Origin: an uncultured Gammaproteobacteria bacterium
GTDB taxonomy: Bacteria > Patescibacteriota > Microgenomatia > UBA1406 > GWC2-37-13
NCBI GenBank assembly: GCA_964530005.1
Contig: CAZGZD010000001.1
Location: 33,541-97,540 of the forward strand
Length of the DNA: 64,000 nucleotides
Reading direction: 5' to 3'
This document shows, piece by piece, positions 2,286 to 63,604 of this stretch. A model generated the notes under the pieces. That model had not been told where the DNA came from, made no database searches, and saw only the letters and a program-made list of their open reading frames with translations. Positions within the stretch are counted from its first letter, which is position 1; each line of letters begins with the position of its first letter. The position numbers and the translations under genes were made by a program.

Positions 2286-2945
2286 ATGAGAAATGTCCTT
2301 GTGTATGCGTCGCTTGTCTTCTTGTTTCTTATTGCAGTTGTAAGTACTGCGTACGGATCTTATGGCCAATATGAACCCACTCCATCGAAAGCTATCCTGA
2401 TCGACAAACAGGTCGCCAAGCCATCTGACGAGAAAGGTGGAGGCAACAGCCAGGACTATGCTGATAATCTTAGTCCCTCTGATCCCCGATTTGTACCAGA
2501 TCAGCATGTATTCTTTAAGCTTATTGTCAAAAATACCTCAGATACTGAGCTTACAGACGTTGAAGTGACAGACTCTGTCCCCGACTTTTTGGTACCAGTC
2601 GCTCATCCTGGCAACTTTGACTCAGACAGCCGTGAGATCACTTTCAATGCTGGCGATTTTGCTATTGATGAGGAAAAGACATATATTCTTGAGATGAAGT
2701 TCGTAGGCGATGGCGATCTGCCAGATGACCACAGCATCACCTGTGTCGTAAACGAAGCTCGAGCCAAATCTGATGATGTTGAAGATGAAGATACAGCGCA
2801 GGCGTGCGTCGAAAAACAGGTCGATGAGGAATCAACAATCGAGACAATACCATCGACAGGTCCTGAGCTTATGGGGCTTGTGGTTGCGGCTGAGATGGCT
2901 ACACTTGGTGCCGGTATCTACCTTAATCGCAAAACTCGAAAATAA
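2286..2945 (+). CDS. Cell-surface protein with N-terminal signal/TM, DUF11-like beta domain and LPXTG-like C-terminal sorting signal
   Basis: 219 aa with a hydrophobic N-terminus (LVFLFLIAVVSTAYG). The C-terminus is IPSTGPE, then a hydrophobic stretch, then RKTRK, which is sortase-substrate architecture. Confidence 0.7.
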   Translation: MRNVLVYASLVFLFLIAVVSTAYGSYGQYEPTPSKAILIDKQVAKPSDEKGGGNSQDYADNLSPSDPRFVPDQHVFFKLIVKNTSDTELTDVEVTDSVPDFLVPVAHPGNFDSDSREITFNAGDFAIDEEKTYILEMKFVGDGDLPDDHSITCVVNEARAKSDDVEDEDTAQACVEKQVDEESTIETIPSTGPELMGLVVAAEMATLGAGIYLNRKTRK

Positions 2946-5357: not shown

Positions 5358-5384
5358 CCCTCCGCAACAAGTACAATAAATCTT

Positions 5385-11706: not shown

Positions 11707-11784
11707 GCAGCCTGTAGCTCCAGCAGAAACCCCTTGAGGATATTTATCTAAAAGATGTAGAGCTTTTTCCTTTATCTCACTTCA

Positions 11785-11814: not shown

Positions 11815-11819
11815 GAATA

Positions 11820-12146
11820 ATGATGGCAATAACTGATGAATATATAAAGCAAATAAAGGTTGATTTTCTTCATCAGCTATCCGAACTTTTACGGACTGGG
11901 AATATGCCACTTGAGAATGCACGTGATATCTGCCGACAATTTAAGACATACAATCCATTCACGACATTTGAAGATCTCAAAACCAAAATCAAAGCATTCA
12001 CTCAAAAATATACTGAATTTGGCAAGATGTATACTAAGATTCTACGAGATGAGGAAAAGTATCGCACAAGTACTGTGCTTACTAAGATGCAGAGCCTCAT
12101 CGGCACTGGCAATATAGATCAAGCATTACAAGTAGCCAAAACATAA
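11820..12146 (+). CDS. Small helical hypothetical protein, first gene of a duplicated two-gene module
   Basis: 108 aa. Its stop is 3 nt before the next ATG. In size and position it parallels 44463..44906. Confidence 0.6.
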   Translation: MMAITDEYIKQIKVDFLHQLSELLRTGNMPLENARDICRQFKTYNPFTTFEDLKTKIKAFTQKYTEFGKMYTKILRDEEKYRTSTVLTKMQSLIGTGNIDQALQVAKT

Positions 12147-12149
12147 TTT

Positions 12150-22401: not shown

Positions 22402-22417
22402 ATATGTGATGGTTACT

Positions 22418-23170
22418 TTACAATACGAATAATTTTAATGCAACTCCGATTCCAATGAATAATATTCCTGGCAGAGCAAACTTGGCTATATTATCAAGCG
22501 CCCCAGTACGAGGAAGTGCTGAGACTGTAGATTCTGGTCCACCAAGACCGCCCGATGCTGTACTATCTGTGATTCCATCCCCATTTGCATCAGTGTCTGT
22601 GGTGTCTGGAATTCCATCTCCATCGGTATCTGTCGTGTCGTCGTCTGTCGCGGCACCAATCGTGACACTGGCTGTGCCATTCTGGCCGCAGCTTATGATG
22701 TTGGTGGCATCGATATCATCTTTCTCGATTGTAGATGTATCTGACGAATTGCTTGAGTCACAGATAAATTCAAGCTTGGATGTGCCTTCTTTGACCCCTT
22801 TAAAGGTGATTGTAGCGACTGTGCCTTTTCCTGACTTGGCTGCTTCAGGGTCGTTGTTGAATCCAAAAAAGCTCACCCGACCAGACGTATCCTCATCGTC
22901 TGTGCTATCAGCGAAAAACGTACCATTCGCCGCGGATACGGGCTCAATAACCTCGCTATCGTAGCTTACGATCACAGTCGAGCTTGGCGATTTCTCGCTT
23001 CCTGTGTCAATCGTCACCTTTACGCTAAATGTCCCATCTACATTGGCGGTGACAGAGGTGGGATCAAAGTCTAAAAAAGCAGCATGCGCAGACTGCGCCA
23101 AAGCCCCAAATGCAAAAATAGCAAAGAAGATGAATAGTACGTGTATGTATACTTTCTGCATTGCTCTCAT
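22418..23170 (-). CDS. Cohesin-domain surface protein with TSP3-like Ca-binding repeats and an LPXTG sorting signal
   Basis: A signal peptide ends AQSAHA. A cohesin-like beta sandwich follows (FSVKVTIDTG...VSYDSEVIEPVS...ATITFKGVKEGTSKLEF). Then come DTDGDGIPDTTDTDANGDGITD and LPRTG plus a hydrophobic tail. Confidence 0.65.
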   Translation of the reverse strand: MRAMQKVYIHVLFIFFAIFAFGALAQSAHAAFLDFDPTSVTANVDGTFSVKVTIDTGSEKSPSSTVIVSYDSEVIEPVSAANGTFFADSTDDEDTSGRVSFFGFNNDPEAAKSGKGTVATITFKGVKEGTSKLEFICDSSNSSDTSTIEKDDIDATNIISCGQNGTASVTIGAATDDDTTDTDGDGIPDTTDTDANGDGITDSTASGGLGGPESTVSALPRTGALDNIAKFALPGILFIGIGVALKLFVL

Positions 23171-23183
23171 TCTCTATTATTTA

Positions 23184-23822: not shown

Positions 23823-23838
23823 ATTGAAATTTGAATTA

Positions 23839-26113: not shown

Positions 26114-26332
26114 ATGTCGGACTCACTCAAAAGAAGCGCAAAAGTATCACTCTCCGATCTTCCAGATCTGATGACGATTCGAGAGGTAGCAGATCTCCTG
26201 CGTGTATCCCCACTTACCATAAAGCGCTGGGGCAAGCGCGGCAAGCTTCCGGCAATTCGTATCAACTCCCGTGGCGACCGTCGCTACAAAAAAGAGGTCG
26301 TCGAACGACTCCTAGGTGTAGAGCAAGAATAA
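26114..26332 (+). CDS. Excisionase/MerR-like helix-turn-helix DNA-binding protein
   Basis: 72 aa. MTIREVADLLRVSPLTIKRWGKRGKLPAIRI fits the HTH_17/excisionase-type motif. Confidence 0.8.
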   Translation: MSDSLKRSAKVSLSDLPDLMTIREVADLLRVSPLTIKRWGKRGKLPAIRINSRGDRRYKKEVVERLLGVEQE

Positions 26333-26387: not shown

Positions 26388-27872
26388 ATGGCAGAAAGAA
26401 TATTGCGAGAAGTGCGATTTGCAGCTGAGCCTCTCGCCTATCAACAACCTTCCCATGGATTCCAGGCTAGACTACTTCTGGGCAAACGCACGCTTGATCC
26501 ACAGCATCAGGTTGAGGGTGAGATGAAATCTGAGCATTTTGCGACCATTGCGCAGCATGATTACTCACCATTTGAGCGCACATCTCAGGCTGAGCGCAGC
26601 GAATACTGGAACAGTCAGCGCGTTGAGTCAAATGCGCAGGTTGATGCGTGGACTAGCCAACTTGTAAATATTTTTGCGCATCATCAGGATTTTTTCACGA
26701 CCACTGAGGAAGGCCAACGAAGGACACAGTTTCTTGCACAAATAGGAATTGACGCGGCAAACTTCGATTCAGATACTGCACAAAGTATCTACCAAACCTT
26801 TTTTGGAGAAGGCGTTGATGATTCTCTCAAACTATATACCAACATAGTGCTCAGTCTTCATATAGATGAAGGGTCTGGGATGATAGATCAAGCAAGACTC
26901 ACAGATAGCCTTCCAGAAATACTGTGGTTTGCTAGTATATTCGGTGAGAACTCATCCCATATAGTGACTCAGCTCATTGAAGCCGAAACAGCGCTTCAGA
27001 CTGATCGAGATATTTTTATAGAAAGAGGTAACGCTGAAATAAATAATCTCTCAGATTACGAAACGAGTCTGCTTAATTTTGTTATGCAACATGGGTATCG
27101 AGAAGAAGAAGCAAGTCAGGATGATAATCCAAATAGTGTCGCACGTGCAGAAGATTTAGAGCCACAGGAGGTTGCTGAAAGACTTATAGACTACACAACG
27201 GGCAGGCCAACCGGTGAGAAGGTAGATATGTCACAGTCTTTTCCCCAGTTTGTCGAGCTTATTGAAGAACTGGCAGAGCACGAACCTTTGGTCCAGGAAA
27301 AAGCACTCTTGCTTATTACTGACGATACAGCTGCAATGATAGACCGTATAGCACAAGAGGCCAATGATCGCGATCGAGAACTCGGATTTGTTATACGAGG
27401 AGTACATCTTATGCAGGACCCTGGTGATAAAAGATATCTCATCGGAGGATATGTTGCCCCTGCTATGGACTTTGCCACAGCCAAACGAGGTACTACTACC
27501 ACCGATCCTGAATTTGAGCTCGCAAACGCTACTGCTCTCACGCAGAATACGCAACTAACAGAATACCTTGAGGGCAAAGCTGGAATAGATGTGGGCAAAC
27601 TTGTCCTTGTCGGACACATACACCAGGAGGGACTGGGCAAGCACTGGCACACAGAACCGTCTCAGCAAGACTACGAGCAAGTAGAACAGACATTACGCGA
27701 GCGTGGTGGGTCATACCCCTGGGCTGTAGTGACCAAAGCGGATGGCCAGCTTGGAATGCGTGTTTTCTATAGCTATCTGAGAGATGGTGAAGTTCAACAT
27801 GACGAGATTCCATTCACCACCGAATCGGGTATATATCAGATGCTCCAACAAGGCCAGAGAGATGCTGCGTAA
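26388..27872 (+). CDS. Hypothetical protein with a C-terminal JAB/MPN (JAMM)-like metalloprotease domain
   Basis: 494 aa. The C-terminal region reads ELGFVIRG...LVLVGHIHQEGLGKHWHTEPSQQD, which fits E...HxH...SxxD. I do not recognise the N-terminal ~330 aa. Confidence 0.55.
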   Translation: MAERILREVRFAAEPLAYQQPSHGFQARLLLGKRTLDPQHQVEGEMKSEHFATIAQHDYSPFERTSQAERSEYWNSQRVESNAQVDAWTSQLVNIFAHHQDFFTTTEEGQRRTQFLAQIGIDAANFDSDTAQSIYQTFFGEGVDDSLKLYTNIVLSLHIDEGSGMIDQARLTDSLPEILWFASIFGENSSHIVTQLIEAETALQTDRDIFIERGNAEINNLSDYETSLLNFVMQHGYREEEASQDDNPNSVARAEDLEPQEVAERLIDYTTGRPTGEKVDMSQSFPQFVELIEELAEHEPLVQEKALLLITDDTAAMIDRIAQEANDRDRELGFVIRGVHLMQDPGDKRYLIGGYVAPAMDFATAKRGTTTTDPEFELANATALTQNTQLTEYLEGKAGIDVGKLVLVGHIHQEGLGKHWHTEPSQQDYEQVEQTLRERGGSYPWAVVTKADGQLGMRVFYSYLRDGEVQHDEIPFTTESGIYQMLQQGQRDAA

Positions 27873-27944: not shown

Positions 27945-29387
27945 ATGGCAGGACCCACAATACCAGATATCCCCACCTATCGCCCGCCAGAGGCTGCTCC
28001 ACCAACCGAAAATCCATTTCTTGAGGGTATAGCGCGAGTAGGATATAAGGCTAGTCGACATATTCAGGAAGGATTTGGTCAGACTTCAACAAACGATAGA
28101 AAGACAGATAGACAGATAGTGACTGAGGTTGATACAAAAGTCGAGGCAGAGTTGAAAGAAGAACTCGGTAGAATCAGCCCACAAGTGAAATTTTTCGGTG
28201 AAGAAGGAGGGGGTGCGGTGGAGCGAGCTGGAGATCAATGGGTAGTAGATCCGCTGGACGGCACAGAGAATATGCGTGGCTGGCCACACGAGGTCGCAGT
28301 CTCAATCGGACTGCTTCGCAATGGCGAACCTATAGCTGGAGTAATTGTCGATCCTTTGCACAAAAAGGCATATGTTGCCGAAAAAGGGAAAGGAGCATAT
28401 GAGATTACCCTGAACGACGATGGCACTGTAAAAGAAAGAAAAGCGATTAAAGTAAGCGACTGCCCCCAGATTGAAAATACGGCGATGGTCGGGGTGGATA
28501 TATCATCCAATGAAGTGAGTCGAACCAGAGCACTTAAACAACAAAAACTTATCCTAGATGCGAAGGCTCAAAGTGTGAAAATCACGGGCTCACCTGTCGC
28601 TGCACTTGCGGCTGTTGCGGAAGGCTCACTTGATGTCTATATTCGAGAGGCGACAAAAGCTCCAGATCTGATTGCCGGAGTCGCTATTGTTCGCGAAGCA
28701 GGTGGCAAAGTCCTCAACTATGAAGGACGGGAATGGACAGTAGATGATCTGGGAGTCGGGAAAGGAATTATAGCCGGTGGCGAAAAAATTGCCTCAGAGC
28801 TCGCCGTGCTTTTGCAAAAACCAGAAGTCGCTGTAAAAATGGACGAAAAACCAATCGCAGAACAAATCGCAGATGAACATGCTTTTGATCTTGACAAACT
28901 TATACCTGAACTTCAGGTCGCCAAAGCACAAGGCAAAACACTCGTAATTACCAATGGGCATTTCGTACTCCTACACCCAGGTCATGTCGAGAGCTTCCAA
29001 CTAGCACAAGAGGTTCCTGGCGGTAATCCAGAAGACGTTGCTCTTTTAGTTATTGTGAATAATGATAAACAAACAGCTGCAAAAGACCCAGAAAAAGCTA
29101 AATTGCAAGCTGCACAAGATAGAGCAGCTATGGTAGCCAATCAACGCCAAGTGAGCTTTGTGGCAATATCAGGATCCGAAGATGCTTCTGTTGTAGCCGA
29201 CATCCAAACTCTTATTGATAATGGATTGGTTGACGGAGATACAATGTATGTAAAGGGCGGAGACTATAATATGGGTGACAATATTCCTCCTGAGGCCGAA
29301 CTTATACAAAAAGCCGGGGGGAGATTTTTGCTTCAAAGCAGAAGTGGGAAGTGGTCAACAACAGAACTTATGCACAAGTTGGGATAG
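27945..29387 (+). CDS. Fusion of an inositol-monophosphatase-family phosphatase with an HldC/RfaE-domain-II-like (HIGH-motif) nucleotidyltransferase
   Basis: The N-terminal half has FFGEEGGG, WVVDPLDGTENM and DLIAGVAIVREAGG (IMPase motifs). The C-terminal half has LVITNGHFVLLHPGHV (HxGH) and ends VKGGDYNMGDNIPPEAELIQKAGGRFLLQSRSGKWSTTELMHKL, very like heptose-1-P adenylyltransferase. Confidence 0.75.
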   Translation: MAGPTIPDIPTYRPPEAAPPTENPFLEGIARVGYKASRHIQEGFGQTSTNDRKTDRQIVTEVDTKVEAELKEELGRISPQVKFFGEEGGGAVERAGDQWVVDPLDGTENMRGWPHEVAVSIGLLRNGEPIAGVIVDPLHKKAYVAEKGKGAYEITLNDDGTVKERKAIKVSDCPQIENTAMVGVDISSNEVSRTRALKQQKLILDAKAQSVKITGSPVAALAAVAEGSLDVYIREATKAPDLIAGVAIVREAGGKVLNYEGREWTVDDLGVGKGIIAGGEKIASELAVLLQKPEVAVKMDEKPIAEQIADEHAFDLDKLIPELQVAKAQGKTLVITNGHFVLLHPGHVESFQLAQEVPGGNPEDVALLVIVNNDKQTAAKDPEKAKLQAAQDRAAMVANQRQVSFVAISGSEDASVVADIQTLIDNGLVDGDTMYVKGGDYNMGDNIPPEAELIQKAGGRFLLQSRSGKWSTTELMHKLG

Positions 29388-31103: not shown

Positions 31104-34100
31104 TTATATTTGTGGCTCAAATCGTTCACCTGTCCCATACGGCCCGTGCTGGTAGTCATAATGTTCCAGACCGGCGAAGAATTCCCGAATCTTAGCATCT
31201 CGATCATCTAGATCCTTCCATGTATATCGAGGAGCTTCTGTTCCCTCGGGAATAATGTAGAATCCGCGTGCTGGAGTACGCCTCATTCCCATGCGCTCAC
31301 CTGGTTTATAATCAAGCGTGGGGAATGCTGCTTGATAAAGCTCCTCAAGTGCATCCGGATTCTCCCGCACCGCCCCCAGCAGCTTATTCAGCTCTACCTC
31401 CGACATCTCATACTCCACATAAGCCGGAGTGAAAGTCCCCTCAGCACGACTATCAGGGGCTTTATCATCCTGGAAAAACTCCATCCTCAGGATCTTATTA
31501 CCCTCAACCGTTGAGGGCATAATTCGCACATACTGTTGATCAACCAACTCAGACAAACGTTTTCTTGCTTTATATACATCATTCAGAACTTCATTTACCG
31601 TATCAACTCGTCCATCTCGTACATAATTCAGCCAGTCTGGCCCATGATCAGAAAAATGACCTTCACTTCGAGCGGTTACTTCTTTTGGTACCTTACCTCC
31701 ACTTGTCTCACCTACATACGTGCCAGCCGGGAGCTTACCGTGGACGTTTTTCCCCGGTATCTTGATCTCTACCTCTTCACCCAGGTCGACTGTAGCTTCG
31801 GCGGCTGTGGGCGCACCTTCGGCAGATGCTGGCTGAGGCGTGACGATTTCTTTCTTGTCAGCCTTTGGTAAATTCAGGGACTTAAAATGCTCTCTTAGTC
31901 CATAAGATCTTTCTAAGACTGATTCAGAAATTGTTTGGATATTCGGATATTCCGGATCGATTTGTAAAGGTCGATTTACGTGACCATCTCTTCTTCTCTC
32001 GCTTCTATCATATTCAGGATATTTCGCTTTAAAAACATCCAATAGAATAGATGGATCTTTTGCCAAAATTGGGTTAAGCCGACTAGAATCTTCAGCTGGC
32101 AAAACTATGGCATAATCTGTATGTGAATGACCTCGAGAATCACCCTGTCTATCGTTAAAAGTAACTACAAATACAGACTCACCTTTTTTAGTACTGAGAC
32201 CAATTATCCGGGCATTAAATTCAGGTCCATTTTTCTCCTCATCAACAAAAGCTATTGACCATACTTGTTCACCCGTCAATGCACTCTCAATTATGCCCGC
32301 AGCTTGGCCATCTGTAAAAACTACCCCATGCCCCATAGGTCCTCCAGCAAATCTACCAAGAATGCCATGGGAATATTTGTGATCTGGATCCGTGACTAAC
32401 TCATTGACAGTGGCTGTGCGATCCTCAACAGTAAGAGGACTTTCTGGAATTGAGATAGTAGACTCAGCGGGTACGACTGGTTCGGCTACAAGTGGAGATA
32501 CTGGCATTTCTTCATCTGGACTTGCTGGCATGTGTGTAGCGACAGGTGCTGTGGCCTCAACAGCTATTGTATCCTCAGTGCGAGGAGCTATATATTTGGC
32601 TGCAACAGCCGACATATTTGCTATTCCCTCCTTGGAAAGAACGCTATATCCGATCAGTCGACTCACGACATCTCGGGGAGCAATATCTCGAGTGACAAGT
32701 TCTTGTATTACCTCATGGTAGGGCTTCTCAATTCCATCCCACAGTCCATCGGTCGTCAATACAATCTGCTCAATGTCATCGAGCTTGCCATTGAAAAATT
32801 CGGGGTTGGTGTCTGGCGACTTGAAGCCAAGGCACTTGCTTAGAAGAGCCACACCATCAACATCCACCTCGTGTGCGTCAGTCGTGAGCTGCTCGGCAGA
32901 TCCAGCGGATACCTTATATGCACGCGAATCGCCTAGATTGGCTCCTATATAACTACCATCATCGTTGAGCACGACGACGACGAGAGTGCTGGCTCCATCT
33001 ATGCCTTCATCACGATTGGCTAATTCAATGTGCTTTTGTGTTGTCCGAACTGCCTCGCGAAGAGCCTCTTCTGAACTCAGCCCCGCATCTTTTGCTGCGC
33101 TATAGTGCTCACTTATTGTATCCACAGTGATCTGACTGGCACGCTCACCTCCACTGTGACGACCTACGCCATCAGCTGCAATAAGCACTGTCTGACCATA
33201 AGTATCAAGTCGCAGGACTTTCACCCTATCTTGATTAGCTTGCTGCTCACCTTGCTCAGTACCGCTTACTACAATATATGGTCCTTGCCATCCCCAATCG
33301 ATTTCTTCTGCATTAGGCCGATCATTCAACTTAAAGGCTTTTATTCTGTCTGTCAAAATAAATTCATCTACCGTCGATGCGGCTTCTGTTGGCCTGTGAA
33401 TTACATCATCCCCTACCCGACCAAGGTTGCGCACGCTACGAGTTACTTTTCCTGCTACCCCCTTTGCCATACTTACTCCAGTCCTGAGTCGCGATTTTTT
33501 ACCTTTTTTTTCTAACTTTCTCAGAATTTTTTTTAATTCTTTGTCACTTGTTCGTCTATCACTTACTTCAGCCGTATCTTGGTCGAAAAACGTAGCTCCG
33601 TCGCCAGCTGGCTCTCGATCTGTTCGTATGGTAGCTGGCGTTTCGGTGACGGATGCCGGGGTAACACCGGGTTCTGTATGAAATCTGTTTATATCAGCAT
33701 CAGCCTCGGCGGATGAGGTATCGGCTGGCGTACCGGTAGTGCCTGTATCTCCCTCAATAAGATCATCTCCTCCTAGATCTTCTACATTAAACTCAGTCGA
33801 GCGACGAGATGCGGCTTCGCTGGTTTGATCCACCGTTGCGGCGCTTGACTCGCGCGGATTTTCGGTACGCACTATTACTGCCTCCTCAAGATCGGGATCT
33901 AAGACAACATCTGCCTCCAGATTCACGCCTTGTCCACGAAAACTCTCAAGCGATTCCTGACTATCTTTAATAAATTGATTTACCGCATTGATTTCATCTG
34001 CGAATTCTTTGGGATTCTTGGGCACCTCCAACTCGCCTCTATAGTCGGCTACTGTACCGGCGACCTCGGCTATAATCTGCTCCCATCGATACAACTCGTA

Positions 34101-37100
34101 TACTCTCTCTGGCACCATCACTGCGGCTTTGCTGCTTCCTGCTGTGATTTTGCGAATCTCGTTGGATTTGGGATCACTGTTTGGGTATATATATACTTCT
34201 GAAGAATTTACATTTGTCATATTTATACCTTCTGCCTCCTCAACCACAGATTGAAATACAGACCATAGCGGTTCATTGGCCGCAAACACCATATGAAGAT
34301 TGCGTGCCTGTGCTACAAATCGGTCGAGCTGTGCGAGTTCGGCATCTGTAAGATGTACTGTATCTTTGAATCGCGCTACACTATCCCCCTCGGGCTTGTG
34401 AATAGACTTTTGCCATATCTGTGTCAACAGATCTGAATCCCAGTCTTGTGTAAGTACTCGATCGACCGGAAGCACACGCTCTTTGGCTAGTTCTGGTGAC
34501 TGCTCAGACCCCGTATGGGAGGATTCGGGTTGAGTACCATCGGATGCTATGCGCATCGTGGCAACAGCCAGATCATCATCTGGGGCAGATCGCAGTGCGT
34601 TTTTGCCAGCTACTTCCCTGGCTTCACGAATAATCATATCCGCCAGATATGCCGGATCATCCCCATATCCTTCACCAACTCCTGCGCCGCTGAGACGTTT
34701 GACTGTATCTTGAGTGAGATTAAGTTTTATACCACGAGACATTATCAAAATCTCACTATCTTGAGGAGTAAGGTCAACATTGTGTATGCTGGGACTAAGC
34801 TCTGCACCAAAGAACATACCCAATAGTCTTCGCTGAGTAAAGTAATCACGAGCATTCTCTGTTCTACTTGGTAGGTAGGATCGAAGCTGGCCTTGTCGTG
34901 TATTTGTATCCAACTGCTTACGATAATACTCGTATTGCTTGCGCGTGATCTTGCCTTGCATAAGATCCAAGCGCAGCTGATCATCGTCCTGTGTAATCTG
35001 TCGAAGCTCGCCTTGACCTGTACGAGCATATGCCGCACCGGTGCCAAGGTGCATGATCACGGCAGAGGGAACCTCTTCACCATTTACGACTCGTGTATAA
35101 AGCTGTACTACAGTCCCACCTATGGACATGCGTGGCTCTTGATCTGCACCTATTATATTGGGTATAAGCGCAAGCTCGCGACCGATTTCTGCTTGAATCT
35201 GCAGATATGCCCGTTCAATCTGTGCTTCCGAGGGATTCGCTGGAAGCTGGGTAAGGATCCGGGTGGTGACATCAGCTGCTTTGGTAGCAATCTCTTGTTG
35301 ACGCGGTAGGTCTGGATTGCGCTCCCCAGAATCAAACATTGCGGTGAATCCTCGAACGGAATCTTGTGCCACAACTACTTCTTGTCTGTCTGGATGATTC
35401 TTGGCAGACTCTATTTTGTACACAGAAGCATGACCTTCATGACTCTTTTCTGATGTAACACGCAAAGCTCGAGCATCCTCAGGCTGGCCTTTTAGTTCAG
35501 GAAATCCATCATTCAACGTGACTGTCTCATGACCTGGCGACGTCTCCCCATACGAGCCAACTCGAGATCTTTCTATCTCCACGAGTACTTCCTTGGCATC
35601 GGGAGTAAGTGTGGGCGCTGCAAGCTCGCCTCGAGGCAGAACGTGAACAATGGCCTTTGACGCTTCAGGAGATGGTTGCGCCTCGGGTTCGAGCTCGACA
35701 ACAGTCGCCCCATCCGCACCTGAAACTGTTGATTCAGCAGGTGCAACTGATCCTGCTTCATCTGTTGATGGTGTTGCGCCTGTGCGGATTGTTACTGGGG
35801 TTTCGACTATGGGGGCTGCGACTGCTGGAGGAGGAGGCACTACTATGGCATCGGCATCCCCGGCTGTCGTGGACGGAGTGACGGGAACTACTGGTGGTAC
35901 AGTTGACTCAGGGATTGCAGTTTCAGTTTGTTCAACCGGCTCACTTAGTGGAGTTGCTGGTACTGTATCTCTGGGAGTTTCTCCAGTTGTTGCTGTTGCT
36001 TCGTGTGATGTTTGCGAAGGCGGTGTTGTTATCGTAGGAGTCGATGACAACTTCTTGACAATCACGATCGTCGTGTTGTCTGCGCCACCTGCCTCATTGG
36101 CTGCCATAATCGCGCTACGAACCATATCTTTTGGAGTATCCGACATCACGGCAAATCTCCAGATTTCTGTTGTGGGATCATGCCTTGTACTAGCCCACAG
36201 TCCATCTGAGGTAAGAAGTAAGTGCGCTTCGTCATTAAGCTTTCCTGGGAATATATCCACATCTACAGTCGGCTTATGCCCTATTGCTCTTGTGAGGGTG
36301 CTGCTTCGCTCATGAGTATATGCTTCCTCTTGAGTAATGCGACCCATATCTGCAAGCTCTTGAGCAACAGAATGGTCTTTGGTGATCTGAGATACTGCAG
36401 TCATCTCACCGATGGTATATCCACGGGAGTCACCAACGTTGGCAAGTAAATAGGATCCATCGTCTTTTAGAACCGCAGCAACTACTGTGGTACCCATTCC
36501 GCGAAGGTCTGGATTGCTTTGTCCCTCTTGGTAGACTGCTTCATTTGCTCGCTCGATCGCCACACGCAAAGCCTCCTCTTCGGCCATGCCGCTTATTCGA
36601 AGAGCCGTATATTCCTCCCGCACCTTTTTTGTGGCAATTCCACTCGCTTCAGCTCCTCCTCTGTGGCCACCCATACCGTCGGCAAGGATAAAAAGGCTCT
36701 CACCTAAATCATTTAGTCTGGTTTGAGTGAATTGGTCCTGATTATTTTTTCTCACTCGCCCCTTATCTGTTCCGGCAGCCCATAGATAAGGTCCCATCTC
36801 ACCCGACTCAACTCTGTCTCTTGCGTCTTTTGCCCCTTCAGTCGTCTCAACTGTAGCAGGTGCTTCCGTTGAAGACGATGGCGCTTCTTCTCGAGCCCCT
36901 GGTTTTCTTCTGGCTTTCTCCTCTCTCCTCACCCTTATTCTCTCTCTTCGAGTAGTAGGCGTGATGTCTGTCACTGAAGCATCTCCCGTATCTATCACTG
37001 ACGGCTCACTGGGTGGAGTTGATGGTTCTGTTGGAGCTGTGGGCTCGGGCACTACAGTTTCAGTTGGTTCAGGTGGCGGAGGAGGCGCTACTGTGACATC

Positions 37101-40100
37101 GGCATCAGCGGCTGCCGGTGTAGGAGTTGGTTCAGGCGCCGCGGGAGGCTCTACGGGAGTAGGAACCAGGGGCTCAGCTGGTGTTGGTTCTGCCGGTGGA
37201 GCTGGTGGCTCCGAAGGGGCTGGTGTGGGCGGTTCAGGGGTTGGCGGTACGGCTGGCTCCGGTGCAGGAGAAGATTCAGATGCTGCTGGTTCAGGTGGCG
37301 CAGCTGGCTCGGGGGCTGCAGTTTCAGTTGGTTCAGGAATTGGCGGAGGAGGTGTAGTCGGCGCAGGAGTTGGTGTGGGAGGGATTGGTGTGGGAGGGAT
37401 TGTTGAATTTCTAAACATAACACTTGCACGACCATCTTTGACGATAAACCCCTCGACAACCCACCCTCCGGATATTTTGCCATTAATATATGTAGCTAGT
37501 CCACTATGAACACTATCTAGTTGGGCACTGATCTGATCTTTGACTAAAGAATGCCTTCCTTTAAAAGTTAGCTCTTTTTTAGTCGGTACAAGCATATTAT
37601 GATCATCTGTCTTATACTGCACATCAACCAAAGTCGTCTTGCCGCCCCTTATCAATCCATGGCCTTCTATACTACCTTCGATAATCAATCTGTCTCCATC
37701 GATTCTAACCTTGCCGTCTTTCATCTCATCTAGACCTTTTTCTTTCAGTTTTTCATCTATGGGCTTTTTGGCAAATTCATTTAGATTTTCTTCAGTAAAT
37801 TCGATCCTAGCCTCAGCTCCTACAACATCGGCAAGCGTTTTTTCGATACTTACAAAAATGTCTCTCCCCGGCTCTGTCTCAAGTGGAATCGATGCTGGAG
37901 CTTCTGTTGGTGTGCCAGGAGTGGGTTCTGGAGGGGTTCTGGTTAGAGGGGTTGAGGGAGTTGTAGGTCGAACTGGGGCTGGGGGAATCTCACCTGTGTC
38001 GATTCGCCTCAAGATATCAAGAGCTGCTTGAGATACCACTTCTGACCGGATCTTATTTATCCATTTTTTAGCCTCATCTTTTTCATCATAATCAAATTTG
38101 CCCGTTGTGTCTTTGGGATCTGGCAATAATCCCTGATGGCGGCTGGCGCTGGATATCCAGACATTTGGAGTAAATTCTGGTATGTGCAAACTTATGACCT
38201 GTGGGCCACCCTCGACAACAGCCGCAATATGCGCAAATCCTGTGTCATTGCTAAGCACCAGATCTTGATGCTTAAGCAGCACACTGTTTTGCGCCATATC
38301 TCCTGTTATAAATCTAGCATTCTCAATACCCCCAAACACTCGCTCCAATTCCTCCTTCGAATAACTACCCTTGGTATTGATGAATATGTTTACTTCAGTA
38401 TCCGGCTGATCTGCCCGTATTTTCTCAATTACCTGCTTCCATTGATCTAGTGAATATCTTTTTGCAGTCAAGCTTGCCTCAATGACTATACCAACTTGTT
38501 TTTTGGACGAATCGATCTTATATTTATCGACAAGCTCTTGATACATCTCATCTGCATTAGCTGGAAGATCTATTCGTGGACGTGCGTGTACCAGACTCGG
38601 CGGAGATATGCTCAACAACTCTGCCAGGTATTGACTGAATCGATCATCCCCTGCTCTATCATAATCATACAGACCAACTGATGATGAGAATAAGTCTGAG
38701 GCTATAATAGTGTTATTGTCAGATCGTGCAACTCTGGGCTGCGCCGAATGATGGTCGAACTCAAAAACTACAGCATTTTGGATACCCTTGCTGCGAATGA
38801 GTTCCATCGACCTTTCCACTCCTTCGTATCGTTTCGTCGTTTCTAATTGAATATCTAAGTTCTGTACAAAAGGTTCAAGTAGCTTGTGGACATTGGATGG
38901 AGCAACTATGGTAACGTTTTTATCGGCGCCGCGGCTTCTTAAAAGTTTGGTAATACCATCTACATATGCTGTTGATAAGACTGTATCGCCTATTGCTCCT
39001 GATAATACGATATATACATCATCAGTCGCCATAAATGCGGAGTGCAGCTCTGCCAGAAGTCTTTCGCCGTCTGCAGATTCAAGAGCACCTCCGCCCTCCA
39101 CAAAATCAGCTATTCTTTTGGGTTTGCCTTCGGGACCGCGATATCTATCTACACTAAAGTCTCCATAGTTAAAGTATGTAATTTGCTCTTGTGCCTCCTG
39201 AAGTGGTTCAAGCGCAAACCGTGGGTAAAATGGCACAGGAATGATTGGGATATATGGTATGCCAGCCGGTGCTTCAGCCCCAGGTGGAATAAGCTCCATC
39301 GGAGGAGTCGGACGAAGGTTCAGGATAGTCTCATGACGAGGTTCGTGAAAGTGGATAGAGTTGTCCCCCCAATGGTAGTGAGGATCCTGGATCTGAAACG
39401 CAGACCCACCCAGCGATCTATGATCCCATTGAGTGATTACCCCGTCCTTAATCCGTATATCTCTAAGGATGACGCGGTCATGGTCTGAGGCATTGACCCA
39501 ATCCCATTTGTCACCATGTTGCACAAGTTCTGTCCCCTTGAGCATATGTACCTTGTGACCATCTATCAGTTGGGTCACCATGTGTCCTCGCTCTATACCA
39601 TTTCCAAAATACTCAGGTATAAGTTGGTCACCGTGGCGTATTGTCCAGCCTTCTCGCAACAGCTCGTCTCTCACTTCACGACCAAGTTGGGTATTTTCAT
39701 GAAATCCACGTCCAGCCAGCAAGTGTCCGTTGTGCATCAGCTTAAAATACGGCACCTCCTCATGTGCTGGCATACCGGGTAGCCCTGTGTTGGGACCGAG
39801 CTTCTCACCTGTTATACGATTATAGAATCCGATCTCGTTGGATGCCCAGTTATGCCTACCTTCGATATTTGAGGTGAGCCTCACAGTATTGTTTTCTCCT
39901 TTATGCCCCATAAAAAGCTCGTTTAGTCGCTGTTGTAGCAGTGTGTCTCTTGGGGGTCCCGCTTGATGTAAAGCCTCCACCACATGTTGTGCTGCCTGCT
40001 GCATACCGACTCCTACACCAAGTCCCGCTATTCCACCCACAGCACCGGCAAGGGCCACACTACCGCGGCGATAGCGACGAAACGCTCTATCTGCCTGAGT

Positions 40101-42323: not shown

Positions 42324-42755
42324 TTAATTTACAATCTTCTGATTCTTCGCAATATATTTATCCACAGTCATTCCGGTATTACTTGGCTTATTTCTTTCTA
42401 ATACTACACCGCGAAGATATGTATCGCGAAAATCTCCGAAAAGATCTGTAAAGACTTGCTGAGCGTCAGGCAATTTATCCTGAAGAAACTTCTCAACTTC
42501 AGCCTGCGGCTTACCATCTTCATTCATCTTTACGAACTCTTCGACATATTCATCTGGTAATCTATCTACAATAACGGAAATGATATAGCTATCAAGGCGC
42601 ACAAATAGCTCCTTTATCATCTCCTCATGACTCGCCTCATCAAGAGTCACCGCACCGGCGTCGACGAGGATGCTCTCAAGATACGCACGAACATCTGGGG
42701 TAATCTCCAGAGGTTTTTTCTCTGCAGCTTGGGCTGCTTGTTGTACATCTGCCAT
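42324..42755 (-). CDS. DUF5663-like small helical protein
   Basis: 143 aa. The pattern EEMIKELFVRLDSYIISVIVDRLPDEYVEEFVKMNEDGKPQAEVEKFLQDKLPDAQQVF resembles the Patescibacteria DUF5663 family. This is recalled, not searched. Confidence 0.5.
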   Translation of the reverse strand: MADVQQAAQAAEKKPLEITPDVRAYLESILVDAGAVTLDEASHEEMIKELFVRLDSYIISVIVDRLPDEYVEEFVKMNEDGKPQAEVEKFLQDKLPDAQQVFTDLFGDFRDTYLRGVVLERNKPSNTGMTVDKYIAKNQKIVN

Positions 42756-61135: not shown

Positions 61136-61137
61136 AT

Positions 61138-62974: not shown

Positions 62975-63021
62975 AGTACTCTACTATATGAGACGTTGTC
63001 AAGGGTTAAGAACACACTACC

Positions 63022-63030
63022 TGATATACT
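63022..63030 (+). promoter_or_regulatory. Extended -10 promoter TGaTATACT
   Basis: The ATG at 63038 lies 7 nt downstream, so the mRNA is probably leaderless. Confidence 0.45.
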
Positions 63031-63037
63031 GAGAACA

Positions 63038-63604
63038 ATGAAGCTCACTATAGCGATAGTCGCAGCATGCCTTGCAGTTGTCGGCAATGTGCCATACCTT
63101 CGAGATATTGTCCAAGGTCGGGTCAAGCCGCATGCTTATTCTTGGCTTGTATGGACAGTAGTCTCAGGTATCACTTTTTTTGGGCAACTCGCCAAAGGCG
63201 CAGGTGTTGGGGCGATATCAACTGCAGCATCGGAGATATTTACCGTCATCATTTTCTTATTCTCACTGCGGTACGGATTCAAGCCTGTCAAAAAAATAGA
63301 TACTCTTTTCCTACTCATCGCTCTTCTCGGAATCATTCCTTGGATCATAACACGCGATCCCACAGTATCTGTCATAATCGCTGTCTCGATTGATCTTATT
63401 GCCTTCACACCCACTATTCGAAAGACGTGGAAGCACCCAACAACCGAGACCCCGATGCTTTATAGCATGAATGTACTTCGACATATCCTCGCGCTTTTTT
63501 CCCTACAGGCATACAATATCGCAACCACACTCCACTCTATCGCTATGATTACTGTGAATTCGTGTATGACTCTGCTTCTGACTGTAAAAAGGAAGAATAG
63601 ATAG
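63038..63604 (+). CDS. Polytopic membrane protein (possibly PQ-loop-like)
   Basis: The ATG at 63038 gives MKLTIAIVAACLAVVGNVPYL. About six hydrophobic helices. The ORF-track start at 62996 is a TTG. Confidence 0.5.
   Translation: MKLTIAIVAACLAVVGNVPYLRDIVQGRVKPHAYSWLVWTVVSGITFFGQLAKGAGVGAISTAASEIFTVIIFLFSLRYGFKPVKKIDTLFLLIALLGIIPWIITRDPTVSVIIAVSIDLIAFTPTIRKTWKHPTTETPMLYSMNVLRHILALFSLQAYNIATTLHSIAMITVNSCMTLLLTVKRKNR

What the first reader, a model, noticed from the sequence alone, without database searches (positions are those of the whole stretch)
27945..29387. HldC-like nucleotidyltransferase fused to an IMPase-family phosphatase, beside a GT9 domain, in an apparently LPS-less cell
The window shows sortase-type LPXTG-like signals (IPSTG at 2286..2945 and LPRTG at 22418..23170). 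That argues for a monoderm envelope without an LPS core, which is the normal destination of ADP-heptose and GT9 enzymes. The fusion could combine the GmhB-like dephosphorylation step (here IMPase fold instead of HAD) with the adenylyltransfer step. The GT9 domain at 38125-39025 would then heptosylate a protein or a non-LPS glycan, as in the TibC/AAH-type autotransporter heptosyltransferases. Transaldolase at 48042 can supply sedoheptulose-7-P. No GmhA or HldA homolog is visible in the window.
Basis: partly seen in the sequence, partly recalled or inferred. Interest (0 to 1): 0.7.

Follow-up and report, generated by a model that had tools for sequence, protein, structure and literature searches.

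The report
Phosphatase–adenylyltransferase fusion for ADP-heptose-like sugar
A tiny-genome bacterium that makes no lipopolysaccharide encodes a fused phosphatase and HldC-like sugar-phosphate adenylyltransferase, which always sits beside an odd kinase-like protein and heptosyltransferase-type domains, so it looks like a rebuilt ADP-heptose pathway used for something other than LPS.

Summary
ORF 27945-29387(+) encodes 480 aa: an IMPase domain with intact metal-binding motifs, then a cytidylyltransferase-fold domain. That domain's only specific matches are HldC/RfaE domain II, not TagD or ECT.

The fusion is rare: 6 clusters among 5.8 billion. It is recurrent, though, and lies in a conserved Patescibacteria cassette:
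- a DUF5663-like gene;
- a giant GT9 protein;
- often a second GT9 protein;
- an HldC-like protein;
- a kinase-like protein 'Y' (window 29392-31083, minus strand).

The HldC-like protein comes in three forms: fused to IMPase, standalone, or fused to a probable permuted HAD domain. Elsewhere Y is fused to each form, for example Y-IMPase-HldC in 1029 aa. That domain order mirrors HldA, GmhB, HldC.

The closest standalone relatives of the IMPase domain (43-63% identity) lie inside a gmhA-gmhB-hldE-GT9 cluster in Nitrosomonadaceae.

Best reading (confidence 0.55): the fusion removes a distal phosphate and then adenylylates a sugar 1-phosphate, supplying an ADP-heptose-type donor to non-LPS GT9 enzymes.

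Weak points:
- No GmhA or HldA was found in about 74 kb.
- Y has Asn where kinases have the catalytic Asp.
- The HldC-like domain scores far below the curated cut-off.
- GmhB coexists with the IMPase in Nitrosomonadaceae.

This is a new variant of a known pathway. Interest 0.7.

The parts
27945..29387 (+). Fusion ORF, 480 aa: IMPase-family phosphatase followed by an HldC-like adenylyltransferase
28035..28778 (+). IMPase domain (aa 31-278). Metal-binding motifs are intact: GEEGG, WVVDPLDGTEN, PDLIAGVAIVREAGG. The subfamily signature is shared with the Nitrosomonadaceae proteins of the heptose cluster.
28917..29381 (+). HldC-like nucleotidyltransferase domain (aa 325-479). Motifs present: TNGHF, LHPGH, VNND, YVKGGDY, WSTT.
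   Evidence: motif list from PMC7993394
29392..31083 (-). Y, 563 aa, convergent with the fusion (4-bp gap). Atypical kinase-like protein of the protein-kinase / PI3-PI4-kinase / HipA / APH superfamily. Its catalytic loop reads QYNRRPHN. In other organisms it is fused to the HldC-like protein.
31104..42308 (-). Giant protein, 3734 aa. The first ~1435 aa are orthologous to 1612-1870 aa Patescibacteria proteins that end with the GT9 domain.
38010..39041 (-). GT9 (heptosyltransferase-family) domain of the giant protein, aa ~1090-1433. Conserved motifs: GAIGD, EASxxxKRYS, SNDTGxAH.
36180..36662 (-). First PP2C phosphatase domain of the giant protein (aa 1883-2043), in the lineage-specific extension
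32709..33248 (-). Second PP2C phosphatase domain of the giant protein (aa 3021-3200)
42324..42755 (-). DUF5663-like small protein, 143 aa, directly upstream of the giant gene. The same small gene holds this position in L009, L011, L014 and L021.
26388..27872 (+). X, 494 aa, no family match, directly upstream of the fusion. Its N-terminal ~250 aa are conserved in L001 and weakly in L021.
26114..26332 (+). HTH_17/MerR-like ORF, 72 aa, upstream of X. The same HTH-X pair occurs in L001, L003 and L021.

Best explanation
The ORF encodes a bifunctional enzyme of an ADP-heptose-type nucleotide-sugar pathway that has been rebuilt from non-orthologous parts in Patescibacteria.

Proposed sequence of steps:
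1. The neighbouring kinase-like protein Y puts the anomeric (C1) phosphate on a sugar phosphate. This step is inferred.
2. The IMPase domain removes the distal phosphate. This is the step GmhB performs in the canonical pathway. It is also inferred.
3. The HldC-like domain condenses the sugar 1-phosphate with ATP to give the ADP-sugar. The family assignment is shown; the substrate is inferred.
4. The GT9 domains use that donor on a non-LPS acceptor at the cytoplasmic face. These domains lie in the adjacent giant protein and, in relatives, in TPR-GT9 proteins. The acceptor is most likely a protein or a lipid-linked glycan connected with the neighbouring type IV secretion / pilus genes. The GT9 family assignment is shown; the acceptor is unknown.
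For: (1) Domain identity.
- IMPase: 158 bits with intact metal ligands.
- C-terminal domain: its only specific matches are rfaE_dom_II/HldE and PDB HldC 5x9q. TagD/ECT are not hit.
- HldC motifs TNG, HxGH, N-x-D, KGGDY and STT are present.

(2) Conserved cassette.
- Nine independent loci were compared: the window, L001, L007, L008, L009, L011, L012, L014 and L021.
- The HldC-like gene lies within 10 kb of Y in 8 of them. L008 is a truncated contig.
- It lies within 10 kb of GT9 genes in 8 of them. L001 has an IS next to Y.
- Protein identities between loci are only 27-50%.

(3) Fusion proteins elsewhere that tie Y to the HldC-like protein:
- P0135 = Y + IMPase + HldC-like, 1029 aa
- P0136 and P0141 = Y + HldC-like
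- P0145 = Y + L011-type N-domain + HldC
- P0137 = Y + L011-type N-domain
The domain order is collinear with kinase, then phosphatase, then adenylyltransferase. It parallels HldE, which is kinase plus adenylyltransferase.

(4) Domain swap in the same slot.
- The N-terminal partner of HldC is IMPase, nothing, or a domain with invariant HAD-type motifs (WTxGD, DD, DxDGVxxD).
- The weak PDB hits of that domain are all HAD enzymes.
- The HldC domain of that form is 44-47% identical to true HldE and matches PDB HldC at E 4e-9.

(5) The IMPase subfamily is tied to heptose genes in another phylum.
- Its closest standalone relatives are 43% identical to the window protein and 63% to the L007 fusion. 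The next tier of IMPases lies about 30 orders of magnitude in E-value further away.
- Those relatives lie in a Nitrosomonadaceae cluster: GT4-GmhA, SDR, GmhB, HldE, GT9, GT2, IMPase, GT9, GT4, GT9.

(6) GT9 domains.
- Pfam PF01075 scores above its gathering threshold.
- The profile hits only WaaC, WaaF and 3tov in the PDB.
- The catalytic-base GD, the Lys motif and DTGxxH are conserved.

(7) Y belongs to the kinase superfamily that includes small-molecule kinases.
- The Foldseek top hits are all kinases.
- The sub-threshold Pfam hits are only PI3_PI4_kinase, HipA, APH, Fam20C and LepB.

(8) Precedent for an IMPase-fold enzyme doing the job of a GmhB-like HAD enzyme: histidinol-phosphate phosphatases come from three different superfamilies (PMC9798254, seen). 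HisN is the best NCBIfam match of this IMPase domain.
Against: - No GmhA (SIS) and no HldA, HldE or HddA kinase occur in the 64-kb window, in 10 kb to its left, or in any of the related loci. The source of glycero-manno-heptose 7-phosphate is therefore unknown.
- In the Y clade of this cassette the catalytic-loop Asp is invariably Asn (QYNRR[PA]HN). Paralogues keep YDRxxxN. Y might be a pseudokinase or use different chemistry.
- The fold matches of Y are weak (E 2e-3, model pLDDT 70). A sequence profile of its kinase-like domain finds nothing in the PDB.
- The HldC-like domain scores 65 bits against a curated cut-off of 181.5. It forms its own subfamily with two insertions, and the predicted heptose-binding motifs KG and ExTP are altered.
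- In Nitrosomonadaceae the IMPase coexists with a GmhB gene, so there it is not the GmhB substitute.
- Two lineages (L009, L014) have no phosphatase domain in the cassette.
Confidence: 0.55

Rival explanations
1. The module has the same architecture, but the sugar is not glycero-manno-heptose. Without GmhA the cassette would activate a hexose: for example mannose 6-phosphate to mannose 1,6-bisphosphate, to mannose 1-phosphate, to ADP-mannose. The divergent GT9 domains would transfer that sugar.
For: - No GmhA was found in any locus examined.
- The window-type HldC-like clade has altered KG and ExTP motifs and two insertions relative to HldE domain II.
- B. pseudomallei HldC was assayed with beta-glucose 1-phosphate as substrate (PMC7993394).
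- From general knowledge, not tested here: ADP-mannose is an accepted surrogate donor of heptosyltransferase I.
Against: - The relatives of both the HldC-like domain and the IMPase subfamily are tied to true heptose clusters.
- GT9 is overwhelmingly a heptosyltransferase family.
- A transaldolase, a source of sedoheptulose 7-phosphate, is present.
- GmhA could be encoded elsewhere in the genome.
Confidence: 0.2
2. The pathway is an ADP-heptose pathway, but the IMPase domain is not the GmhB-like step. It would remove the phosphate later. One option is ADP-heptose 7-phosphate. Another is a glycosylated heptose 7-phosphate, by the synthase/phosphatase logic of sucrose phosphate or of MshA.
For: - In Nitrosovibrio the IMPase sits with a full GmhA, GmhB and HldE set. 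It also sits with a GT4 whose best match is MshA (an inositol-phosphate glycosyltransferase) and which is fused to GmhA.
- Cassettes in L009 and L014 work without any phosphatase domain.
Against: - In P0135 the domain order is Y, IMPase, HldC, collinear with kinase, phosphatase, adenylyltransferase.
- A second, unrelated and probably HAD-type domain occupies the same position directly in front of HldC.
Confidence: 0.15
3. The cassette is a protein-modification or signalling module, not a sugar-supply pathway. Y would be a protein (pseudo)kinase working with the PP2C domains of the giant protein. The HldC-like domain would adenylylate a protein or a non-sugar metabolite. The GT9 domains would use a donor obtained elsewhere, possibly from a host cell.
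For: - The best fold matches of Y are protein kinases: GRK, MRCK, CtkA, Rio, CDK.
- Y-type domains occur inside giant multidomain proteins.
- The giant protein carries two PP2C domains.
- The cassette lies beside type IV secretion genes in several loci.
Against: - The PP2C domains are specific to this window's lineage. The orthologous giant proteins end at the GT9 domain.
- The HldC-like domain keeps the sugar-phosphate motifs TNG and KGGDY.
- The repeated fusion of Y to HldC-like with a phosphatase in between is hard to explain by signalling.
Confidence: 0.08
4. The C-terminal domain is a TagD/ECT-type cytidylyltransferase that makes a CDP-alcohol (CDP-glycerol, CDP-ribitol or CDP-inositol) for a teichoic-acid-like polymer. 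The IMPase domain would supply or trim the polyol phosphate.
For: - The fold is shared with TagD and CCT (for the related L011-type protein).
- IMPases act on polyol phosphates.
- The cell is a monoderm.
Against: - TagD (TIGR01518) is not matched by the window protein at E<=0.05, whereas rfaE_dom_II scores E 3e-18.
- The only PDB sequence hit is HldC.
- The conserved partner is a GT9 glycosyltransferase, not a CDP-alcohol or teichoic-acid polymerase.
Confidence: 0.02

Closest known systems
[quoted passage not shown]
   Same: - The C-terminal domain is a relative of HldC / RfaE domain II.
- The inferred logic is the same: kinase, phosphatase, adenylyltransferase, with physical fusion of steps as in HldE.
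- The product is consumed by GT9 enzymes.
   Different: - The kinase partner is a protein-kinase-like / PI3-PI4-kinase-like protein (Y), not PfkB.
- The phosphatase is IMPase fold, not HAD.
- The fusion joins phosphatase and adenylyltransferase rather than kinase and adenylyltransferase.
- No GmhA or HldD is seen, and there is no LPS.
- The HldC-like domain is a divergent subfamily that scores below the curated threshold.
GmhB (D,D-heptose 1,7-bisphosphate 7-phosphatase, HAD-IIIA)
   Same: The proposed reaction, and its position immediately before the adenylyltransferase step.
   Different: - The fold is unrelated (IMPase against HAD), so this can only be an analogue, not a member.
- In Nitrosomonadaceae both genes occur in one cluster.
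HisN versus HisB-N histidinol-phosphate phosphatases
   Same: This is a precedent for one phosphatase step being carried out by an IMPase-fold enzyme (HisN) in some lineages and by a HAD enzyme in others (the HisB-N/GmhB kinship is general knowledge). HisN is the best-scoring NCBIfam model for this domain (121 bits).
   Different: The score is far below the HisN cut-off of 275. The gene context is heptose/GT9, not histidine biosynthesis.
BAHT protein heptosyltransferases (TibC, AAH; PMC4358343)
   Same: GT9-related enzymes that use ADP-heptose on proteins instead of LPS. The TPR-GT9 paralogues in related loci suggest protein acceptors.
   Different: - No specific sequence affinity: the GT9 profile hits WaaC, WaaF and 3tov, not TibC.
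- The hosts are Proteobacteria with a normal heptose pathway.
- Here the GT9 domain sits in 1600-3700 aa proteins.
AmgK-MurU and NahK-type salvage routes (recalled from general knowledge, not tested here)
   Same: A kinase of the APH / protein-kinase-like fold makes a sugar 1-phosphate, which a nucleotidyltransferase then activates.
   Different: - The sugars differ (MurNAc, GlcNAc).
- The nucleotidyltransferases are of the GlmU fold.
- Those kinases keep the catalytic Asp, which Y lacks.
Bifunctional NADP phosphatase/NAD kinase (MJ0917 type)
   Same: An IMPase-fold phosphatase fused to a nucleotide-handling enzyme. The NCBIfam model NF010678 is weakly matched at 46 bits.
   Different: The partner domain is an NAD kinase, not a HIGH-motif nucleotidyltransferase, and there is no GT9 context.

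Membership tests
IMPase superfamily (Pfam PF00459 Inositol_P) | Profile score above the gathering threshold over most of the domain | tested here: met
   157.9 bits against 27; aa 31-278 cover model positions 11-254 of 271. 34 IMPase-family PDB sequences match at E<=1e-3.
IMPase superfamily (Pfam PF00459 Inositol_P) | Metal-binding carboxylates: the GEE Glu, the two Asp of DPxDGT, and the Asp of the (W)DxxAG motif | tested here: met
   FFGEEGG, WVVDPLDGTEN and PDLIAGVAIVREAGG are conserved in all fusions and in the Nitrosomonadaceae relatives. The Trp of 'WD' is replaced by Pro/Thr across the subfamily.
HldC / RfaE domain II (TIGR02199, heptose 1-phosphate adenylyltransferase) | Score at or above NCBI's curated equivalog cut-off | tested here: not met
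   65-66 bits against 181.5. It is still by far the best-scoring specific family.
HldC / RfaE domain II (TIGR02199, heptose 1-phosphate adenylyltransferase) | Closer to HldC than to TagD, ECT/CCT, RibL or PPAT | tested here: met
   rfaE_dom_II scores E 3e-18. The generic cyt_tran_rel model scores E 1e-4. TagD is absent at E<=0.05. HldC 5x9q is the only PDB sequence hit at E<=1.
HldC / RfaE domain II (TIGR02199, heptose 1-phosphate adenylyltransferase) | HxGH nucleotide motif plus the predicted heptose 1-phosphate motifs TNG, NSD, KG, ExTP, KGG and the C-terminal (R)STT (PMC7993394) | tested here: inconclusive
   Present: TNG, LHPGH, NND (for NSD), VKGGDY, WSTT. Altered: KG becomes K-DPEKAK; ExTP becomes SEDAS with an insertion; the stacking Phe of FEHDRSTT is not conserved.
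HldC / RfaE domain II (TIGR02199, heptose 1-phosphate adenylyltransferase) | ATP + beta-D-glycero-D-manno-heptose 1-phosphate gives ADP-heptose | not testable with these tools
   Needs an enzyme assay.
GmhB (HAD-IIIA heptose 1,7-bisphosphate phosphatase) | HAD fold with the DxDx(T/V) nucleophile motif | tested here: not met
   The N-terminal domain is IMPase fold, and no HAD model is matched. It can only be a functional analogue.
GT9 (Pfam PF01075 Glyco_transf_9), for the domain in the giant protein | Profile score above the gathering threshold | tested here: met
   35.5 bits against 22, E 8.9e-9, aa 1264-1366. Orthologues and TPR-GT9 paralogues also hit PF01075.
GT9 (Pfam PF01075 Glyco_transf_9), for the domain in the giant protein | Two-lobed GT-B domain with the N-lobe Gly-Asp catalytic base, the Lys motif and the C-lobe DTGxxH donor-binding motif | tested here: met
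   In a 10-sequence alignment G68-D69, D316-T317-G318 and H321 are invariant, and K244 is nearly so. The profile aligns to the GT9 structure 3tov over positions 23-368 against 10-344, and hits WaaC and WaaF. No structure model of this domain was made.
BAHT (TibC/AAH autotransporter heptosyltransferases) | Specific sequence affinity to TibC/AAH rather than to the LPS heptosyltransferases | tested here: not met
   The GT9 profile finds WaaC (E 9e-4), WaaF and 3tov in the PDB, but not TibC at E<=1.
Protein-kinase-like superfamily (for Y) | Conserved beta3 Lys, catalytic-loop Asn and the Mg-binding Asp of the DFG-like motif | tested here: met
   K279, N363 and D375 (IDHG) are invariant. Fold matches are kinases only. 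Sub-threshold Pfam hits are only kinase families.
Protein-kinase-like superfamily (for Y) | Catalytic-loop Asp (HRD / DRH type base) | tested here: not met
   Asn358 is invariant in the cassette clade (QYNRR[PA]HN). Paralogues have YDRxxxN.
HldA / HldE domain I (PfkB heptose 7-phosphate kinase) and GmhA (SIS isomerase) | Presence of such genes near the fusion | tested here: not met
   None among the 43 window ORFs scanned with Pfam, in the 10 kb to the left, or in the related loci. The whole genome could not be searched.

The most novel reading that the evidence does not exclude
The cassette is a complete, non-orthologous ADP-heptose pathway specific to Patescibacteria. A PI3/PI4-kinase-like enzyme with an Asn/His catalytic loop (Y) would act as the anomeric heptose-phosphate kinase. 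An IMPase or a permuted HAD would act as the 7-phosphatase, and a divergent HldC as the adenylyltransferase. The pathway would feed membrane-associated giant GT9 proteins and TPR-GT9 proteins, which would heptosylate proteins of the adjacent type IV secretion / pilus apparatus or of a host cell. That would be the first protein-heptosylation system outside Proteobacteria and the first kinase-fold replacement of HldA.
Probability: 0.3. Interest if true: 0.85.

Novelty: new variant of a known kind. Interest (0 to 1): 0.7.

Why it matters
ADP-heptose is regarded as an LPS precursor of Gram-negative bacteria and as an innate-immune signal.

If the reading is right:
- Ultra-small, LPS-free Patescibacteria would have a dedicated supply-and-use module for ADP-heptose or a close analogue.
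- The module would be assembled from unrelated enzyme folds and tied to giant proteins and type IV secretion genes.
- A nucleotide-sugar pathway would have been re-invented by non-orthologous displacement at two steps.
- It would point to a new class of sugar-phosphate kinases.
- It would give a concrete, testable handle on surface or effector glycosylation in episymbiotic bacteria.

It would also assign a function to three orphan families: Y, the heptose-cluster IMPase subfamily, and the L011-type N-domain.

Tried and rejected
- Single-sequence PDB searches of Y, X and the GT9 region gave nothing. The GT9 region needed a 10-sequence profile.
- A sequence profile of the Y kinase-like domain found no significant PDB match. 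Its classification rests on Foldseek, motifs and sub-threshold Pfam hits.
- The 1050-aa protein next to the Nitrosovibrio IMPase was tested as a possible Y homologue. It is not one.
- The HAD idea for the L011-type N-domain could not be settled. PDB profile hits are HAD enzymes only, but E is 0.04-0.6. The Foldseek list for the good AF2 model (pLDDT 88) was filled by matches to the HldC domain.
- Naming the window's organism failed. None of the exact-match clusters carries a source name. The genome is not among the GTDB species representatives found by the Y scan.
- Walking out of the window gave only about 10 kb to the left and nothing useful to the right. No GmhA or HldA was found there.
- The Grx-like small gene of the cassette has no adjacent counterpart in the window. 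There is only a weak match (E 5e-8) to the N-terminus of the 292-aa protein at 49058-49936.
- The promoter and terminator scan was no better than shuffled sequence.
- Literature searches found no description of an IMPase-HldC fusion or of GT9/heptose systems in Patescibacteria. The one exception is a KEGG-level note that Paceibacteria encode ADP-heptose synthesis (PMC9166423).
- The TagD/ECT reading was rejected on family scores.
Full report
OBSERVATION

The window has a single uninterrupted ORF at 27945..29387 on the plus strand, 480 aa.

- Pfam places an inositol-monophosphatase-family domain at aa 31-278, with E 4.6e-46 and 158 bits against a gathering score of 27.
[quoted passage not shown] E is 4.6e-18 and the score 65 bits.
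- The full HldE model comes next. The generic cytidylyltransferase model reaches only 20 bits, and the TagD model is not matched.
- The C-terminal 180 aa hit exactly one PDB sequence at E<=1: HldC of Burkholderia pseudomallei (5x9q, E 7e-6).
- The N-terminal 300 aa hit 34 IMPase-family structures.

The fusion is not an assembly artefact. The identical protein is on at least 15 contigs from different samples, and full-length orthologues of 81, 55, 42, 41 and 42% identity exist. It is rare: six clusters in a 5.8-billion-protein collection.

- A GT9 match lies in the 3734-aa protein 31104..42308(-), at aa 1264-1366, E 8.9e-9.
- There is a transaldolase at 48042-48956.
- Two proteins have an N-terminal signal sequence and a sortase-type C-terminal signal: IPSTG + TM + RKTRK, and LPRTG + TM.
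- Forty-three window ORFs were scanned with Pfam, all but one of the non-shadow ORFs of at least 150 aa (62996..63604 was not scanned). None is a SIS isomerase, PfkB kinase or GHMP kinase.

WHAT KIND OF ORGANISM

No source names the window's proteins. The only named relatives of the neighbouring gene Y come from a 'Patescibacteria group bacterium' MAG and a 'Candidatus Roizmanbacteria' MAG.

Gene content fits a Patescibacteria (CPR) cell with a monoderm-type envelope:
- a cohesin/dockerin trio;
- a VirD4-like coupling protein;
- DsbB;
- sortase-type signals;
- compact gene spacing.

No LPS gene is present in the window. The exact class was not determined.

THE CONSERVED CASSETTE

I fetched the surroundings of every full-length relative I could find.

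- In the window the minus strand reads: DUF5663-like gene (42324-42755), giant GT9 protein (31104-42308), Y (29392-31083).
- The plus strand reads: HTH (26114-26332), X (26388-27872), fusion. The fusion ends 4 bp from the end of Y.
- The same set recurs at 27-50% protein identity in L001, L007, L008, L009, L011, L012, L014 and L021.
- Across the nine independent loci, Y lies within 10 kb of the HldC-like gene in eight. The ninth, L008, is a 5.8-kb contig.
- At least one GT9 gene lies within 10 kb in eight. The exception, L001, has an IS1595 transposase where the giant gene would be.
- Many loci add a second GT9 protein. It carries TPR repeats in L007, L008 and L011 and no TPR repeats in L014 and L021.
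- Many also add a small glutaredoxin-like gene.
- Several lie beside type IV secretion genes (T4SS pilins, PrgI, TraC-like, VirB4) and close to dnaN (dnaA too in L009).
- Only the first ~1435 aa of the window's giant protein are conserved. The orthologues are 1612-1870 aa and end with the GT9 domain. The two PP2C domains and the Pro/Thr-rich linkers are therefore a lineage-specific extension.

THREE ARCHITECTURES IN ONE SLOT

The HldC-like gene of the cassette comes in three forms:
- IMPase-HldC, in the window, L001, L007 and L008;
- a standalone protein of 208 or 226 aa, in L009 and L014;
- a 425-533 aa protein whose N-terminal domain has no family match, in L011, L012 and L021, 17 clusters in all.

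The adenylyltransferase domain of the third form is close to canonical HldE:
- 120-122 bits on TIGR02199;
- 44-47% identity to Azospirillum HldE;
- best Foldseek match HldC 5xf2 at E 4e-9, on an AF2 model of pLDDT 88.

Its N-domain has invariant WTxGD, DD and DxDG(V)xxD motifs, which are the four HAD motifs in permuted order. Its only PDB profile hits are HAD enzymes: class C acid phosphatase at E 0.044 and beta-phosphoglucomutase at E 0.6. That is suggestive, not significant.

If it is a HAD enzyme, two unrelated phosphatase folds were independently fused in front of HldC in the same genomic slot.

FUSIONS THAT TIE Y TO THE HldC-LIKE PROTEIN

A profile of Y was searched against 1.84 billion representative proteins and found only 98 relatives. 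Among the closest:
- P0135 (1029 aa) = Y + IMPase + HldC-like, 41% identical to the whole window fusion;
- P0136 (779 aa) and the fragment P0141 = Y + HldC-like;
- P0145 (1077 aa) = Y + L011-type N-domain + HldC;
- P0137 (970 aa) = Y + L011-type N-domain.

So Y is fused to all three architectures. The domain order in P0135 is the order of the canonical reactions HldA, GmhB, HldC. This is the strongest evidence that Y, the phosphatase domain and the HldC-like domain act on one substrate in sequence, as the two halves of HldE do.

WHAT Y IS

- Y has no Pfam, NCBIfam or PDB sequence match.
- An AF2 model from five sequences has pLDDT 70. Its top 50 Foldseek matches are all protein kinases, including GRK1, MRCK, H. 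pylori CtkA, RioK1 and CDKs. Probabilities are mostly 0.9-1.0 (lowest 0.66), but E is only about 2e-3 and TM scores are low.
- Fifteen kinase-domain segments of the family give sub-threshold Pfam hits. With two chance-level exceptions (EF-hand_8, Ssol_1539-like_2nd; E 0.07-0.26) these are kinase families: PI3_PI4_kinase (4 members, best E 1.2e-5), HipA, APH (6.9e-5), Fam20C and LepB.
- The beta3 Lys, the catalytic-loop Asn and the Mg-binding Asp of an IDxG motif are invariant.
- The cassette clade always reads QYNRR[PA]HN where paralogues read QYDRTPWN. The usual catalytic Asp is therefore an Asn, flanked by two Arg and a His.

That could reflect a switch to an anionic sugar-phosphate substrate, or a loss of kinase activity. 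The data cannot tell which.

The paralogous YDR-type domains sit at the C-terminus of ~1000-aa proteins and inside giant proteins of up to 6637 aa.

THE IMPase SUBFAMILY AND HEPTOSE GENES IN ANOTHER PHYLUM

After the six fusions, the best relatives of the window protein are 264-297 aa standalone IMPases of Nitrosomonadaceae.
- Their E-values are about 1e-46 to 1e-56, with 40-46% identity. The next tier of IMPases sits at about 1e-25.
- The Nitrosovibrio protein is 63% identical to the IMPase domain of the Patescibacteria L007 fusion. That implies transfer between phyla.
- An alignment shows shared subfamily signatures, DGTEN-x-GYPP and R-P-[AS]-T-K-x-[PT]-D-x-x-AG, with all metal ligands intact.

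In Nitrosovibrio sp. Nv4, and in a related metagenomic contig, the gene lies in this cluster:
- a GT4-GmhA fusion (gmhA model 186 bits);
- an SDR;
- GmhB (147 bits);
- HldE (393 bits);
- GT9;
- GT2;
- the IMPase;
- then GT9, GT4 and GT9.

So this IMPase subfamily keeps company with heptose-phosphate enzymes and GT9 in two very distant lineages. The same cluster contains a GmhB gene, however, so in that organism the IMPase is not the GmhB substitute. It may act on another heptose 7-phosphate species. The GT4 partner of GmhA resembles MshA and sucrose-phosphate synthase, enzymes whose phosphorylated product is trimmed by a separate phosphatase.

THE HldC-LIKE DOMAIN IN DETAIL

[quoted passage not shown] In an alignment with HldE domain II, the window clade compares as follows.
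- It keeps TNG(H)F, HxGH, N-[NA]-D, YVKGGDY and [YFW]-S-T-[TS].
- It has two insertions.
- It replaces KG..RP by K-DP..KA.
- It alters ExTP.

The domain is therefore a distinct subfamily of HldC-like enzymes and scores below NCBI's equivalog cut-off. Membership of the HldC branch is supported. Identity of substrate is not.

THE GT9 DOMAIN

A profile of ten GT9-like regions (giant proteins and second GT9 proteins) hits only GT9 enzymes in the PDB:
- WaaC (2h1f, 2gt1, 6dfe; E 9e-4);
- WaaF (1psw);
- full-length 3tov, positions 23-368 against 10-344.

The Gly-Asp corresponding to the catalytic base of heptosyltransferase I, the Lys motif and DTGxxH are invariant or nearly so. TibC is not hit, so there is no specific link to the BAHT clade (PMC4358343).

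The giant protein has no signal peptide and only weak hydrophobic segments, at aa 562-608 and 749-769. The GT9 domain therefore probably works in the cytoplasm.

MOST LIKELY MECHANISM

The fusion is the middle and last part of an ADP-heptose-type pathway.
1. Y provides the anomeric phosphate.
2. The IMPase domain removes the distal phosphate.
3. The HldC-like domain makes the ADP-sugar.
4. The GT9 domains use it on a non-LPS acceptor.

What is shown: the domain families, the conserved linkage, the fusions, and the heptose context of the IMPase subfamily. What is inferred: every substrate and the direction of flow. I put this at 0.55.

The main uncertainties are these.
- GmhA is missing in everything I could see. 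That covers about 74 kb around the fusion and nine related loci, and it leaves room for a hexose donor (0.2).
- The exact step of the IMPase is open (0.15).
- Y has an odd active site, which leaves room for a signalling reading (0.08).

COMPARISON WITH WHAT IS KNOWN

- The closest known system is HldE/HldA-GmhB-HldC with WaaC/WaaF.
- A KEGG-level survey reports ADP-heptose synthesis genes in Paceibacteria only among freshwater CPR (PMC9166423). Heptose in CPR is therefore not unheard of.
- I found no description of an IMPase-HldC fusion, of Y, or of this cassette.
- A HAD-to-IMPase swap has a precedent in histidinol-phosphate phosphatases (PMC9798254).

I rate the finding as a new variant of a known kind, with interest 0.7.

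Noticed in passing
window 31104-42308 (-): The 3734-aa protein carries a GT9 domain, two PP2C phosphatase domains (aa 1883-2043 and 3021-3200) and long Pro/Thr/Glu-rich linkers. Only the first ~1435 aa are conserved with 1612-1870 aa orthologues that end at the GT9 domain. The function of the conserved ~1000-aa N-terminal part is unknown.
   Followed up: partly
window 29392-31083 (-); proteins P0146-P0206: The Y-type kinase-like domain defines a rare family: 98 proteins among 1.84 billion representatives. Paralogues with the YDRxxxN loop sit at the C-terminus of ~1000-aa proteins and inside giant proteins of up to 6637 aa. Some members also carry adenylate kinase, epimerase/dehydratase or NTP_transferase domains.
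   Followed up: partly
L011 8406-9917 (-), L012 8382-9659 (-), L021 10001-11578 (+): A second kind of HldC fusion, 17 clusters. Its ~300-aa N-domain has no family match but carries invariant HAD-type motifs in permuted order (WTxGD ... DD ... DxDGVxxD). This may be a circularly permuted HAD phosphatase or mutase. The AF2 model has pLDDT 88.
   Followed up: partly
L015 841-2778 (+) (Nitrosovibrio sp. Nv4): A 645-aa fusion of a GT4 glycosyltransferase (best match MshA, 270 bits) with a GmhA sedoheptulose 7-phosphate isomerase domain, at the head of a gmhB-hldE-GT9-GT2-IMPase cluster. It suggests a glycosyltransferase that uses heptose 7-phosphate as acceptor.
   Followed up: no
L007 6130-7632 against L015 8001-8828: The IMPase domain of a Patescibacteria fusion is 63% identical to a standalone betaproteobacterial IMPase. 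That is far above the level expected between phyla and indicates horizontal transfer.
   Followed up: no
window 26388-27872 (+) and 26114-26332 (+): An orphan 494-aa protein X is preceded by a 72-aa HTH_17/MerR-like gene. The same pair recurs next to the cassette in L001 and L021. The C-terminus of X contains an H-x-H ... S-x-x-D pattern that recalls a JAMM motif, but with the wrong spacing. This was not verified.
   Followed up: no
window 21799-25857 (-): A run of four genes on the minus strand, in transcription order: a dockerin protein (672 aa), two cohesin-domain proteins (212 and 250 aa, the latter with an LPRTG sorting signal) and a fn3 / purple-acid-phosphatase-N-like protein (200 aa). 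The run is syntenic in L001 and L003. It may be a small cell-surface scaffold.
   Followed up: no
window 4632-13253 (+): A VirD4/TrwB-like coupling protein (8623-10818) lies beside orphan genes of 1082, 249 and 367 aa. In related loci the cassette sits next to T4SS pilin, PrgI, TraC-like and VirB4 genes and close to dnaN (dnaA too in L009).
   Followed up: partly
window 55528-62156 (-): A metal-handling cluster: MgtC/DUF4010, VIT1, DsbD_2-cupredoxin, a P-type Cu ATPase with an HMA domain, and DUF305.
   Followed up: no
window 49058-49936 (+): A 292-aa protein whose N-terminal glutaredoxin domain is the only window match (E 5e-8) to the small glutaredoxin-like gene of the cassette. That gene follows the HldC-like gene in seven related loci but is missing next to the fusion here and in L001.
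   Followed up: partly
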